This document shows, piece after piece, positions 35,490 to 37,124 of a stretch of DNA of 64,000 nt (position 1 is its first letter; each line of letters opens with the position of its first letter). The position numbers were made by a program, and so were the translations under genes. Source of the DNA: Bdellovibrionota bacterium (GTDB lineage: Bacteria > Bdellovibrionota_C > UBA2361 > JBGSMV01); assembly GCA_044356455.1 (NCBI GenBank), contig JBIKWF010000006.1, positions 4,477-68,476 on the forward strand, in the 5' to 3' direction. The notes beneath the pieces were generated by a model. The model searched no databases and was not told where the DNA came from. It was given only the letters and a program-made list of their open reading frames with translations.

Positions 35490-37124
35490 TCATTCAGATT
35501 TTGCCAAACGCGCTGATGAAGTTGGACAAGTTTGAATCACATCAAAATGTTTTTGAAAGAGAGAAAGAGGCATAATGAGAGCTGCTTCCTCGAAGCGAGG
35601 GTTGTCGCCATGCGGATTGGCGATAATAACTGAGCCCTCTCCCTCGGCTGAAACACTATAGCCAAGCACTGCATAGGCATGAGAAGTCACGAGTCCCGCC
35701 TCATTTACCTTGCAGCTCTCCCCTCGGTGCGCCGTGCTTGCCACGACCGCAATACGGGCACCGGGTTCAAATGCGCTTATGAGCACACGTTCCATCGGCT
35801 GGGTAGCTGCAGACTGGCCTGCACGATAGTCATAACGGGTAGCTTTATTACCAGTAATTAACTCAAGTGAATGCTCTGCCCAACCTCCACCTCCAATATA
35901 CTGAGCGGGAAGCATGAGAACTTGATCGTCATAACTACCGAGGTGGTGCGCGCCCTCGCGCTGGACGTAAAGCCCCGCAGCCTTTTCAAGGATAGGAACC
36001 CAGGAGTATTGTGGGCTAGCCGCTTTTGCAAAAAGCGCGCGCTCAACATCAGTGGGAAGTTCCAAAACGATGGCATTGTTCGGGTCACCAGGGAATTGCA
36101 CCGTAAACTTTCCGTCCCCAGATGAAGTTATAATGTTGCGCAGCAGTTCCGGGTCAACGCTACTTAGCGAGAGAAGCGATGCAAGAAAGTAGCAATTACC
36201 TGTGCGCCCTTGCTGGACTGCCTCGGGGACAATTGCAAAGTTTTCAGGCCGTATAGCTTCCCAGGCTGAATTACTGAGCCGCTCAGAGACGGCTCGATGA
36301 GAACCTGAAATTGCCGAGGTCATCGAGAGGTAAGCAGATTTTGGACCATGCGCTTCGATGATTGTGGATGAATAATAGAGGAGATCATCCTTGGTAATTC
36401 CGACGCGTTCCTCTGGCAGCTCGTTCGTGTTAGTGGCTCGGATATCAGAATATGAGGCCTTGATCACTCGAGCGACTTCGGCCACTTGAGGATCGATGCT
36501 CCCCGTTGCGCGTTGCACTTCCGCACGGTCAAGCGCCAAGTCCCCGTTTTGGTCAATGCTCTCGAATCCCTTTTCATTTAGGAGGAATCGTCTCGCCTCT
36601 TTCACACTTTCGACTTCCACGGCGACTTTGCCTAGTTGTCTGTTAAATCCTTTTAGATCTCCTCGCGATATCTCCCATTCCCGAAGCAGTCCGTCTCCTA
36701 AATCAACGGTCGTCGTAACGATGCCAGGGTAGGCACTCACAAGGGAGGCAGCGAGCTGCGACTCGTTCGGCAACAGGTCCACACGGTTCGCAAAAGTGGC
36801 CACTTCCTCTTGGCCAATAAAACTATCCTTGTTGGTATCTAGGCTATCAAATCTCTCAAGTGCAAGATTGATGACCCCGGATGGCGTAAGCTGAACTATT
36901 GGCGGGGGATGTGCACGCTGGTCAGAGGCCTCAGCACGCGGAGTAGGGATCAGGGCCTGTGGAACGAGAGCTGCCGCGGCAAGGTGCCTAAGCCATCCTC
37001 GACCAAAGCTACCTGACAGAGGAGACGCTGGGGCATGATCGCTTGGGCTTTGCAGCCGACTGCTTACTGACTTCTCATCACCAGTAGAACTAGACCTATG
37101 GTCCTGATTCTTCTTAATTTCCAT
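35490..37124 (-). CDS. Calpain-like (C2-family) cysteine peptidase with two N-terminal EF-hand loops and an N-terminal export-signal-like segment
   Basis: EF loops DTNKDSFIGQEE and DQNGDLALDRAE. Catalytic Cys QGRTGNCYFLASLLSL, His VTSHAYAVLGY, Asn IIANPHG. The N-terminus reads RGWLRHLAAAALVPQALIPTP. Confidence 0.6.
   Translation of the reverse strand: MEIKKNQDHRSSSTGDEKSVSSRLQSPSDHAPASPLSGSFGRGWLRHLAAAALVPQALIPTPRAEASDQRAHPPPIVQLTPSGVINLALERFDSLDTNKDSFIGQEEVATFANRVDLLPNESQLAASLVSAYPGIVTTTVDLGDGLLREWEISRGDLKGFNRQLGKVAVEVESVKEARRFLLNEKGFESIDQNGDLALDRAEVQRATGSIDPQVAEVARVIKASYSDIRATNTNELPEERVGITKDDLLYYSSTIIEAHGPKSAYLSMTSAISGSHRAVSERLSNSAWEAIRPENFAIVPEAVQQGRTGNCYFLASLLSLSSVDPELLRNIITSSGDGKFTVQFPGDPNNAIVLELPTDVERALFAKAASPQYSWVPILEKAAGLYVQREGAHHLGSYDDQVLMLPAQYIGGGGWAEHSLELITGNKATRYDYRAGQSAATQPMERVLISAFEPGARIAVVASTAHRGESCKVNEAGLVTSHAYAVLGYSVSAEGEGSVIIANPHGDNPRFEEAALIMPLSLFQKHFDVIQTCPTSSARLAKSE

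What the first reader, a model, noticed from the sequence alone, without database searches (positions are those of the whole stretch)
35490..37124. Bacterial calpain-like protease with two N-terminal EF-hands and an export-like N-terminus
A complete C2 catalytic triad context (QGRTGNCYFLASLL, SHAYAVLGY, ANPHG) is combined with two canonical 12-residue EF-hand loops placed N-terminally. In classical eukaryotic calpains the penta-EF-hand domain is C-terminal. It may be a Ca-activated secreted protease or effector.
Basis: partly seen in the sequence, partly recalled or inferred. Interest (0 to 1): 0.6.

Follow-up and report, generated by a model that had tools for sequence, protein, structure and literature searches.

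The report
Bacterial calpain protease with N-terminal EF-hands
This gene encodes a bacterial calpain-type cysteine protease fused to an N-terminal calmodulin-like calcium-sensor domain; it belongs to a sizeable but undescribed family, although published surveys say bacterial calpains have no EF-hands.

Summary
The 544-aa ORF at 35490-37124 (-) is real and is found identically in three other metagenome assemblies. Residues 300-538 are a genuine calpain (C2) core: Pfam scores 54 bits against a cut-off of 23.8, Gln305/Cys311/His482/Asn503 align with calpain catalytic residues, and all 36 Foldseek PDB hits with E <= 0.001 are calpain cores. Residues 72-256 model as a four-EF-hand, two-lobe domain. 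Only EF1 (96-107) and EF3 (191-202) keep the Ca ligands, and both lack Gly6, so they fail PROSITE and Pfam thresholds on their own.

The protein is a divergent member (20-25% identity) of a large metagenomic family with the same EF-hand-plus-calpain layout. In most relatives the EF-hands are fully canonical. The core's own calpain Ca sites are missing, so the EF-hand domain is the only recognisable Ca-binding element. It is N-terminal and lacks the PEF and CBSW domains, which suggests independent acquisition.

The "export-like N-terminus" is not supported. Residues 1-71 are disordered, and the only hydrophobic stretch is 13 residues long and follows 43 polar residues. Secretion remains possible because some relatives carry RHS or LysM domains.

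Verdict: new variant of a known kind, moderate interest.

The parts
35490..37124 (-). Complete CDS, 544 aa: EF-hand-calpain protease
   Evidence: ORF list. The identical protein is encoded on three other metagenome contigs with the same gene order. It is the only ORF in the window that matches the family HMM.
37126..37135 (-). Shine-Dalgarno-like AAGGGTGGGG immediately upstream of the ATG
   Evidence: Sequence read; coordinates checked. No alternative start in the first 80 codons.
36912..37124 (-). Residues 1-71: polar, Ser/Pro-rich, predicted disordered N-terminal tail
   Evidence: pLDDT 33-39. This region does not align and varies in length among relatives.
36945..36983 (-).
   Evidence: An 11-residue hydropathy window peaks at 1.84 here and a 12-residue window within the first 71 residues at 2.0. 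The patch follows 43 polar residues, with no RR motif and no Cys.
36357..36911 (-). Residues 72-256: four-EF-hand domain made of two lobes (EF1+EF2, EF3+EF4)
36804..36839 (-). EF1 loop DTNKDSFIGQEE (96-107): Ca ligands D96, N98, D100, E107; Gly6 replaced by S101
   Evidence: D96 is invariant in the family, and E107 aligns with Glu in 20 of 23 relatives.
36657..36704 (-). EF2, degenerate loop DLGDGLLREWEISRGD (141-156)
   Evidence: pLDDT falls below 50 for 141-147. The family's conserved acidic/Gly pattern (D..E..G-I-S/T-x-x-D) is only partly kept.
36519..36554 (-). EF3 loop DQNGDLALDRAE (191-202): Ca ligands D191, N193, D195, E202; Gly6 replaced by L196
   Evidence: Asp aligns with D191 in 22 and Glu with E202 in 21 of the 23 relatives; one relative is gapped across this loop.
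36384..36431 (-). EF4, degenerate loop NTNELPEERVGITKDD (232-247)
   Evidence: Beta-bridge at I243; family comparison.
36228..36356 (-). Residues 257-299: helical linker between the EF-hand domain and the protease
   Evidence: Helices 261-280 and 285-289 in the model. The spacing from EF3 to the catalytic Cys is 120 residues here, against a family median of 121.
35511..36227 (-). Residues 300-538: calpain-type (CysPc, family C2) protease core
   Evidence: Pfam PF00648 E=1.6e-14, 54.1 bits vs cut-off 23.8. All 36 Foldseek PDB hits with E <= 0.001 are calpain cores, best E=5e-9. The family profile matches calpain-9 at E=1.2e-15.
36210..36212 (-). Gln305, oxyanion-hole Gln
   Evidence: Invariant in the family; aligns with the Gln of calpain QGxLGDCW.
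36192..36194 (-). Cys311, catalytic nucleophile
   Evidence: Invariant; aligned to the calpain-9 catalytic Cys.
35679..35681 (-). His482, catalytic His
   Evidence: Invariant; aligned to the calpain GHAYSV His.
35616..35618 (-). Asn503, catalytic Asn. The following N-P-W Trp is His505 here and the preceding Arg is Ala502.
   Evidence: Asn is invariant. Trp is found in 20 of 23 and Arg in 22 of 23 relatives, so this member deviates at both flanking positions.

Best explanation
The gene stands apart from its neighbours, which are convergent and divergent, and encodes a three-part protein.

(i) A 71-residue disordered polar tail.

(ii) A calmodulin-like domain of four EF-hands in two lobes. Only the odd-numbered hands (EF1, EF3) keep the Asp/Asn/Asp/Glu calcium ligands.

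(iii) After a helical linker, a compact calpain-type cysteine-protease core with Gln305, Cys311, His482 and Asn503.

It is a divergent member of a large, unnamed bacterial family with this same layout.

Proposed mechanism. The protease core has lost the two calcium sites that switch eukaryotic calpain cores on. The N-terminal EF-hand domain supplies the calcium dependence instead. At the sub-micromolar free Ca2+ of the bacterial cytoplasm the EF-hands are empty and the enzyme is held inactive or unstable. Where Ca2+ is high, most plausibly outside the producing cell, Ca2+ binding to EF1 and EF3 reorders the two lobes and the linker, and the enzyme becomes active.

Shown here: the ORF, the domain identities, alignment of the catalytic residues, EF-hand homology at family level, absence of the core Ca sites by alignment, and the existence and size of the family.

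Inferred: Ca2+ binding by this member's Gly6-less loops, Ca2+ control of activity, and the site of action.
For: Protease: Pfam Peptidase_C2 is above its curated cut-off. The catalytic residues align with calpain-9 and are invariant in the family. All 36 Foldseek hits with E <= 0.001 are calpain cores.

Family: 1922 cluster representatives at E <= 1e-3, 479 at E <= 1e-10 and 20 at E <= 1e-30, many aligned over query residues 78-530. BLASTP against P0031 gives 28% identity over 505 residues, E=9e-41. Among the top hits, 79 of 111 have at least one strict PROSITE EF loop upstream of the Cys, with a median spacing of 121 residues against 120 here.

Loss of the intrinsic Ca sites: the site-1 Asp aligns with Ala302, which is Ala in 22 of 23 relatives. 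The 26-residue segment after NPWG that carries the site-2 Asp has no counterpart (site definitions from PMC4631099).

Hint of action outside the cytoplasm: relatives carry the module at the C-terminal end of RHS-repeat proteins (P0132, 95.7 bits) or together with LysM (P0022, 30.2 bits).
Against: Both functional-looking loops lack Gly6 (S101, L196), fail PROSITE, and score below the Pfam EF-hand cut-offs, so Ca2+ affinity may be weak or lost in this member.

This member also departs from the family next to the catalytic Asn (R502A, W505H), which could lower activity.

There is no Sec or Tat signal here, and hydropathy shows none in most relatives. No secretion-system, immunity or mobile-element gene lies next to it or next to three relatives. 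There are no PADLOC hits.

Model coordinates and PAE were not available, so how the EF-hand domain contacts the active site is unknown.
Confidence: 0.6

Rival explanations
1. The protein is a cytoplasmic calcium-signalling protease. It never leaves the cell and cleaves specific cytoplasmic substrates when intracellular Ca2+ rises transiently, much as eukaryotic calpains act as regulatory proteases.
For: No signal peptide in this protein, and hydropathy shows none in most relatives. Chromosomal contexts are ordinary and not conserved. The gene sits among respiratory and stress genes such as the cbb3 oxidase cluster, a DnaJ-domain protein and SOD.
Against: Relatives fuse the same module to RHS repeats and LysM, which are typical of exported or delivered proteins. 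Other bacterial calpains are linked to secretion or toxin domains (PMC4631099). No partner or substrate gene is conserved nearby.
Confidence: 0.3
2. In this particular member the EF-hands are relics. The N-domain no longer binds Ca2+ and serves only as a structural, pro-domain-like or substrate-docking module, so the protease is Ca-independent or weakly active.
For: Gly6 is lost in both loops, whereas relatives have Gly in 20 of 23 (EF1) and 18 of 22 (EF3). EF2 and EF4 are degenerate. The protein shares only 20-25% identity with relatives, and R502A and W505H sit beside the catalytic Asn. EF-hand Pfam scores are below cut-off.
Against: All four side-chain ligand positions (1, 3, 5, 12) and the hydrophobic position 8 are retained in both loops, which is very unlikely without selection. 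The catalytic tetrad is intact. The ORF is intact and identical in several assemblies.
Confidence: 0.2
3. The protein is a delivered toxin or effector. The EF-hand-calpain module is a toxin cargo injected into competitor or host cells through a specialised secretion route, with the disordered N-terminal tail acting as the secretion signal.
For: The module occupies the C-terminal 'toxin tip' position of the RHS-repeat protein P0132 and, more weakly, of P0023 and P0028. N-terminal regions of relatives are highly variable, from 12 to 887 residues before the first EF loop. There is a weak NCBIfam hit to the XopAW EF-hand type III effector family.
Against: This protein has no RHS, PAAR, LXG, WXG or other trafficking domain. 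The XopAW score is 13.7 bits against a cut-off of 120. No VgrG, T3SS or T6SS genes and no co-directional downstream immunity gene are present; the downstream neighbour is a convergent DnaJ-DUF1232 gene.
Confidence: 0.12
4. The gene is eukaryotic contamination or a recent transfer of a classical eukaryotic calpain.
For: The closest solved structures are all animal calpains.
Against: The gene is embedded in bacterial genes (fused ccoNO, ccoP, ccoG, fixH, MreB, RNase G) in four independent assemblies. There is no Calpain_III/CBSW domain and no C-terminal PEF domain. The core is shortened after NPWG, as in its bacterial relatives. Relatives also lie in bacterial contexts.
Confidence: 0.01

Closest known systems
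Classical eukaryotic calpains (CAPN1/CAPN2 large subunit)
   Same: Both have a CysPc papain-like core with a Gln/Cys/His/Asn catalytic set, and both carry an EF-hand calcium-binding domain in the same polypeptide.
   Different: Here the EF-hand domain is N-terminal, has four hands in two calmodulin-like lobes, and joins the core through a helical linker. Classical calpains have a C-terminal penta-EF-hand domain behind a CBSW/C2-like domain and pair with a small subunit (PMC9380684). No Calpain_III domain is present. The two intrinsic Ca sites of the core are absent, and the core is about 26 residues shorter after NPWG.
Previously surveyed bacterial calpain homologues, including Tpr of Porphyromonas gingivalis (MEROPS family C2)
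   Same: Bacterial origin, the peptidase domain at the C-terminal end of the protein, usually no signal peptide, and loss of the eukaryotic core Ca sites (PMC4631099).
   Different: [quoted passage not shown] The 2022 survey says bacterial calpains share only the CysPc domain with other calpains. This protein and its family carry a four-EF-hand domain. Tpr is the only biochemically studied bacterial calpain; its inhibition by EDTA suggests Ca dependence.
Bacterial calpain homologues with N-terminal HemolysinCabind (RTX) repeats (Gloeobacter type; P0003 and P0004 here)
   Same: A different calcium-binding module sits N-terminal to a bacterial calpain core.
   Different: RTX nonapeptide beta-roll repeats are not EF-hands. 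Those proteins match only the protease part of the query, covering 17% of it.
Calmodulin, troponin C and ALG-2 type four/five-EF-hand sensors, and enzyme fusions such as calcium-dependent protein kinases
   Same: A two-lobe arrangement of paired EF-hands with a long connecting helix. These proteins are the best sequence-profile and fold matches of the N-domain. Fusing an EF-hand sensor to an enzyme is the same design principle as in CDPKs.
XopAW family type III-secreted EF-hand effectors (NCBIfam NF041410)
   Same: Bacterial EF-hand proteins thought to act outside the producing cell; there is a weak local similarity around EF1.
   Different: The score is 13.7 bits against a cut-off of 120, so this protein is not a member. 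XopAW has no protease domain.

Membership tests
Peptidase family C2 (calpain CysPc core) | Match to Pfam PF00648 above the curated gathering score | tested here: met
   54.1 bits vs 23.8, E=1.6e-14, residues 300-507; 24 of 24 aligned sequences also match.
Peptidase family C2 (calpain CysPc core) | Catalytic Cys, His and Asn (plus oxyanion Gln) aligned with those of calpains | tested here: met
   Q305/C311/H482/N503 align with calpain-9 QG..GDCW, GHAYSV and RNPWG and are invariant in the family.
Peptidase family C2 (calpain CysPc core) | Calpain protease-core fold | tested here: met
   AlphaFold model pTM 0.77. All 36 Foldseek PDB hits with E <= 0.001 are calpain cores, best E=5e-9, TM 0.55-0.58 normalised by target length.
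Peptidase family C2 (calpain CysPc core) | Cysteine-endopeptidase activity sensitive to E-64 or leupeptin | not testable with these tools
   Needs biochemistry.
Classical (typical) calpains | C-terminal penta-EF-hand (PEF) domain | tested here: not met
   The protein ends 41 residues after Asn503, and the EF-hands lie N-terminal at residues 72-256.
Classical (typical) calpains | CBSW / Calpain_III (C2-like) domain after the core | tested here: not met
   No such Pfam hit even at E <= 10.
Classical (typical) calpains | Two Ca2+ sites inside the protease core (rat calpain-2 Ile89/Gly91/Asp96/Glu175 and Glu292/Asp299/Gln319/Glu323) | tested here: not met
   Site definitions come from PMC4631099. 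By offset from the catalytic residues in the calpain-9 alignment, the site-1 Asp aligns with Ala302, the site-1 Glu aligns with Tyr373 (Gly in the family), and the segment holding the site-2 Asp is absent. This residue mapping is my own inference from the alignment.
EF-hand calcium-binding domains | 12-residue loop matching PROSITE PS00018 | tested here: not met
   Both loops fail at position 6 (S101, L196). Positions 1, 3, 5, 8 and 12 conform. Of the relatives among the top hits in which the catalytic-Cys motif was recognised, 79 of 111 have at least one strict loop upstream of the Cys.
EF-hand calcium-binding domains | Pfam EF-hand model above its gathering score | tested here: not met
   For the query, EF-hand_7 scores 23.9 vs 30 and EF-hand_6 19.4 vs 25. 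Homologous positions in relatives pass, for example P0022 at 120 bits and P0041 at 52 bits, and 21 of the 24 aligned sequences hit EF-hand_6 at E <= 0.001.
EF-hand calcium-binding domains | Paired helix-loop-helix units joined by a short beta-bridge at loop position 8 | tested here: met
   The DSSP string of two AlphaFold models marks single bridge residues at I103, I152, L198 and I243. Each is position 8 of its loop, and I read them as the pairs I103-I152 and L198-I243. These are predicted structures, not experimental ones.
EF-hand calcium-binding domains | Overall structural similarity to solved EF-hand proteins | tested here: inconclusive
EF-hand calcium-binding domains | Measured Ca2+ binding | not testable with these tools
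   Needs ITC, Tb3+ luminescence or a 45Ca overlay.
Sec- or Tat-exported proteins | N-terminal signal peptide (short basic n-region, 7-15 residue h-region, AxA site) or a twin-arginine motif | tested here: not met
   The h-like patch starts at residue 48 after 43 polar residues. There is no RR motif, no lipobox and no alternative start. This was a hydropathy and motif check only; no dedicated predictor was available.
Rhs/polymorphic-toxin C-terminal toxin domains | N-terminal RHS/YD repeats or another trafficking domain in the same protein, with an adjacent immunity gene | tested here: not met
   No such domain in this protein. The downstream neighbour is a convergent DnaJ-DUF1232 gene. Some relatives do carry RHS repeats (P0132, 95.7 bits).
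XopAW type III EF-hand effectors (NF041410) | NCBIfam score above the curated cut-off | tested here: not met
   13.7 bits vs 120.
Unnamed bacterial EF-hand-calpain family (defined here) | End-to-end homology: two EF-hand-pair modules, then a fixed spacing of about 120 residues to the catalytic Cys, then a short calpain core ending about 40 residues after NPW | tested here: met
   Single-stretch alignments cover query residues 78-530. BLASTP against P0031 gives E=9e-41 over 505 residues. Spacing is 120 residues against a median of 121. The family HMM scores 454 bits on this ORF, but the HMM was built from alignment A1, which includes this ORF.
Known anti-phage defence systems (PADLOC) | Match of the protein or its neighbours to a defence-system model | tested here: not met
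   No hits for the gene or eight neighbours at E <= 1e-3.

The most novel reading that the evidence does not exclude
Bacteria independently evolved an EF-hand-gated calpain. A large, so far undescribed family replaced the calpain core's own calcium switch with an N-terminal calmodulin-like sensor, converging on eukaryotic classical calpains. The family would use this switch as a safety catch, so that the protease (free-standing as here, or mounted on RHS or LysM carriers in relatives) fires only after export into calcium-rich surroundings or into a target cell.
Probability: 0.3. Interest if true: 0.7.

Novelty: new variant of a known kind. Interest (0 to 1): 0.5.

Why it matters
Calpains are the textbook calcium-activated proteases. 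The two surveys of bacterial calpains that I could read state that bacterial homologues have no EF-hand domain and are mostly predicted to be calcium-independent (PMC4631099; PMC9380684).

This gene, together with its homologues among the 1,922 cluster representatives matched at E <= 0.001, shows that statement is incomplete. Most of the best-matching relatives carry a calmodulin-like sensor on the opposite side of the core from the eukaryotic PEF domain, and the family lacks the core's own Ca sites.

If calcium control is confirmed, this would be a clear case of convergent regulatory design. It would also provide a small, single-chain, subunit-free model for studying how an EF-hand domain can gate a calpain core. 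And it would point to calcium-triggered proteolysis as a tool of uncultured bacteria, possibly as exported toxins.

The practical value is modest until someone tests the biochemistry.

Tried and rejected
1. Word-indexed homology searches with the protein and with the family alignment returned only 5 and 4 proteins. The index was swamped by generic EF-hand words. The exhaustive HMMER search was needed to reveal the family.

2. The reference-genome scan found only a 25-residue EF-loop match in a Bacteroidia MAG.

3. The AFDB50 fold library was unavailable.

4. tblastn against plasmids found only a Burkholderia 'C2 family cysteine protease' that matches the protease part at 28%.

5. An attempt to place the organism through the fused CcoNO gave best named relatives in Bacteroidota at 63% identity. 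That is not decisive.

6. An alternative downstream start codon that would turn the hydrophobic patch into a normal signal peptide was rejected. There is no ATG, GTG or TTG in codons 2-80.

7. Sigma-70 promoter and intrinsic-terminator scans around the gene gave no more sites than shuffled sequence.

8. Defence-system membership was rejected.

9. Eukaryotic contamination was rejected on gene context.

10. Internal duplication between module 1 (78-172) and module 2 (173-265) is only weakly detectable in this protein by BLASTP (E=0.013). It is clear from the family consensus.

11. Literature searches for a described bacterial EF-hand-calpain fusion found none. The library covers open-access papers only.
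Full report
**1. What is in the sequence**

The window holds a single ORF at 35490-37124 on the minus strand, 544 aa with an ATG start. There is no other ATG, GTG or TTG in the first 80 codons, and the purine-rich run AAGGGTGGGG sits at 37126-37135 directly upstream. So the annotated N-terminus is the only possible one.

The gene is convergent with a small DnaJ-DUF1232 gene (35047-35448, +). It is divergent from an RNB-domain gene (37452-39497, +). It therefore stands apart from its neighbours.

The exact protein is encoded on three further metagenome contigs with the same neighbours. One source lists it under NCBI as 'hypothetical protein'. The wider window is plainly bacterial: fused ccoNO, ccoP, ccoG, fixH, MreB, RNase G, AdoHcy hydrolase, ComEC, FabH and SOD. 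Several ORFs match nothing.

**2. The protease half**

- Pfam Peptidase_C2 matches residues 300-507 at E=1.6e-14, 54.1 bits against a curated cut-off of 23.8.
- Against PDB sequences the best hit is calpain-9. GNC311YF aligns with GDCWLL, SH482AYAV with GHAYSV, and AN503PHG with RNPWG.
- A profile of the family raises this to E=1.2e-15 and also hits calpains 1, 2, 3, 5 and 8.
- In a 24-sequence family alignment Q305, C311, H482 and N503 are invariant.
- An AlphaFold model built on that alignment has pTM 0.77 and mean pLDDT 77. All 36 Foldseek hits with E <= 0.001 are calpain protease cores, best E=5e-9.

This is a calpain-family core with a complete catalytic set.

Two local oddities of this member are worth recording. 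The Arg before the catalytic Asn is Ala502 (Arg in 22 of 23 relatives). The Trp of N-P-W is His505 (Trp in 20 of 23).

**3. The EF-hand half**

Both have the calcium-ligand residues at positions 1, 3, 5 and 12 and a hydrophobic residue at position 8. Both lack the usual Gly at position 6, so neither matches PROSITE PS00018. Pfam EF-hand models see only the first loop and score below their cut-offs.

On their own they would be suggestive only, but chance is a poor explanation. Two relaxed loops appear in 0.125% of shuffles, and two ligand-strict loops appeared in none of 20,000.

The stronger argument is homology. The loops align column for column with loops that are fully canonical in relatives, with consensus D-x-D-x-D-G-F-L-S-x-x-E-L. 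Of the 24 aligned sequences, 21 hit Pfam EF-hand_6 at E <= 0.001, best 9e-12. P0022 reaches 120 bits. The family profile hits ALG-2, calmodulin and CDPK regulatory domains at E about 1e-6.

In the model, residues 72-256 form four helix-loop-helix units. Single-residue beta-bridges fall at I103, I152, L198 and I243, exactly position 8 of each loop, and I read them as the pairs I103-I152 and L198-I243. This is the hallmark of paired EF-hands, giving two lobes joined by a long helix. A second model of the isolated domain (pTM 0.75) shows the same pattern.

EF2 (141-156) and EF4 (232-247) are degenerate in this protein. In relatives they carry a conserved acidic, non-canonical loop.

**4. It is a family, not a curiosity**

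The word-indexed search found almost nothing. The exhaustive HMMER search found 1,922 cluster representatives at E <= 1e-3, 479 at E <= 1e-10 and 20 at E <= 1e-30. Many aligned in one stretch across query residues about 78-530. BLASTP against one of them (P0031) gives 28% identity over 505 residues, E=9e-41.

Among the top hits in which the catalytic-Cys motif was recognised, 79 of 111 carry at least one strict PROSITE EF loop upstream of the Cys. The median distance from the last such loop to the Cys is 121 residues, against 120 here.

The ten members whose sources I looked up come mostly from unnamed metagenome assemblies and nearly all lack a name. They lie in ordinary, non-conserved bacterial chromosomal contexts.

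The window's protein is a divergent member at 20-25% identity.

**5. Calcium sites of the core**

Rawlings lists the two core sites of rat calpain-2. I used their offsets from the catalytic residues in the calpain-9 alignment.

- The site-1 Asp falls on Ala302, which is Ala in 22 of 23 relatives.
- The site-1 Glu falls on Tyr373, which is Gly in the family.
- The 26-residue stretch after NPWG that holds the site-2 Asp has no counterpart.

This residue mapping is my inference from the alignments. If it is right, the EF-hand domain is the only recognisable calcium-binding element in the protein.

**6. The N-terminus**

Residues 1-71 are polar, rich in Ser and Pro, and predicted disordered with pLDDT below 40. 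The only hydrophobic stretch in them is LAAAALVPQALIP (48-60). It is 13 residues long, broken by Pro and Gln, and comes after 43 polar residues. There is no twin arginine and no lipobox.

That is not a recognisable Sec, Tat or lipoprotein signal. Most relatives also lack an N-terminal hydrophobic segment. I had no dedicated signal-peptide predictor, so this rests on hydropathy and motif checks.

**7. How it probably works**

The shown facts are an intact calpain core, a homologous four-EF-hand domain with two ligand-complete loops, loss of the core's own Ca sites, and a rigidly conserved spacing between sensor and core.

From these I infer that calcium binding to the N-domain controls or stabilises the protease, in place of the core switch used by eukaryotic calpains. 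It is established general knowledge that free Ca2+ in bacterial cytoplasm is sub-micromolar and that RTX proteins use extracellular Ca2+ as a folding trigger. By that reasoning, such an enzyme would be silent inside the producer and active where Ca2+ is high.

Some relatives place the module at the C-terminal tip of RHS-repeat proteins (P0132, 95.7 bits) or next to LysM (P0022, 30.2 bits). This gives indirect support for action outside the cytoplasm.

Against that, this gene has no signal peptide and no trafficking domain. It has no nearby secretion or immunity gene and no defence-system match.

The main rivals are a purely cytoplasmic calcium-responsive protease, and a version in which this member's Gly6-less loops no longer bind calcium.

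**8. Comparison with what is known**

It works like a classical calpain in the broad sense, as a CysPc core plus an EF-hand sensor, but it is not one. There is no C-terminal PEF domain, no CBSW/Calpain_III domain and no core Ca sites.

It is a member of peptidase family C2 and of the bacterial branch of that family. That branch typically has the peptidase domain at the C-terminus and rarely has signal peptides.

[quoted passage not shown] The 2022 survey says bacterial calpains share only the CysPc domain. A 2026 review adds nothing on this point. I found no paper that describes the fusion. The searchable library is open-access only, and domain databases already tag such proteins with both domains.

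**9. Verdict**

The thing is best described as a divergent member of an undescribed bacterial EF-hand-calpain family: a new variant of a known kind, of moderate interest, with a clear and cheap experimental test.

Noticed in passing
window 37172-37307; further copies near 4391-4439, 8051-8067, 16071-16119, 23956-24004, 42830-42846, 53808-53854 and 54924-54972: A dispersed REP-like palindromic element. Upstream of the calpain gene lies a nested inverted repeat with 33-nt arms (88% complementary) and outer 19-nt arms (95%). As RNA it folds at -55.4 kcal/mol, z=-7.8 against shuffles. The 17-nt arm GTGTCCTCTGTRGTGAA occurs 14 times in the window against 0.18 expected, mostly as inverted pairs about 15 nt apart. 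Five of the eight loci fall between ORFs of at least 150 aa, and the 8051 copy lies at the 3' end of one. An alignment of six copies shows a conserved core of about 90 nt. Whether it acts as a terminator, a regulatory hairpin or a MITE-like mobile repeat is unknown.
   Followed up: partly
window 27222-33850: A run of ORFs with no Pfam, NCBIfam or PADLOC match: 872 aa (27222-29840, +), 209 aa (30506-31135, -), 469 aa (31260-32669, -) and 375 aa (32723-33850, -); the 209-aa ORF was not scanned against NCBIfam. The 872-aa protein starts with a hydrophobic signal-like segment followed by a (PT)n linker, so it may be a secreted or surface protein. The others are orphans.
   Followed up: partly
window 32723-33850 (-): Public sources name this 375-aa protein 'protein-L-isoaspartate O-methyltransferase'. 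No Pfam or NCBIfam model matches it at the thresholds used, so the name looks doubtful.
   Followed up: no
window 37452-39497 (+); L002 5250-6239: The divergent neighbour is an RNB-domain (RNase II/R-like) protein of 681 aa with a GTG start and a long polar N-terminal region. This exact sequence is not in the protein collection. Other assemblies call the gene as 680 aa or as only 329 aa, so its start or its integrity is uncertain.
   Followed up: no
window 39499-45959 (-): A cbb3 oxidase cluster with a fused CcoN-CcoO polypeptide of 735 aa (NCBIfam NF011053, 1231 bits), followed by ccoP, ccoG, fixH and a DUF3829 protein. The closest named relatives of the fusion among plasmid records are Bacteroidota (Hymenobacter and Bernardetia, about 63%). 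This is the only hint to the organism's affiliation, and it is a weak one.
   Followed up: partly
window 709-3655 (-): Two adjacent FHA-domain proteins of 484 and 447 aa. The second has two FHA stretches and resembles the YscD cytoplasmic domain. Their function is unknown, and no other type III secretion genes were seen in the window.
   Followed up: no
L006 16035-18290 (+): In the MAG that encodes relative P0022 (eight EF loops, LysM and a calpain core), a second EF-hand/LysM protein of 751 aa without a protease domain lies three genes downstream. This suggests paralogous expansion of the EF-hand module in that genome.
   Followed up: no
window 35047-35448 (+): A small 133-aa protein that combines an N-terminal DUF1232 membrane segment with a C-terminal DnaJ (J) domain. 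It is convergent with the calpain gene and conserved next to it in all assemblies of this strain. A functional link is neither indicated nor excluded.
   Followed up: no
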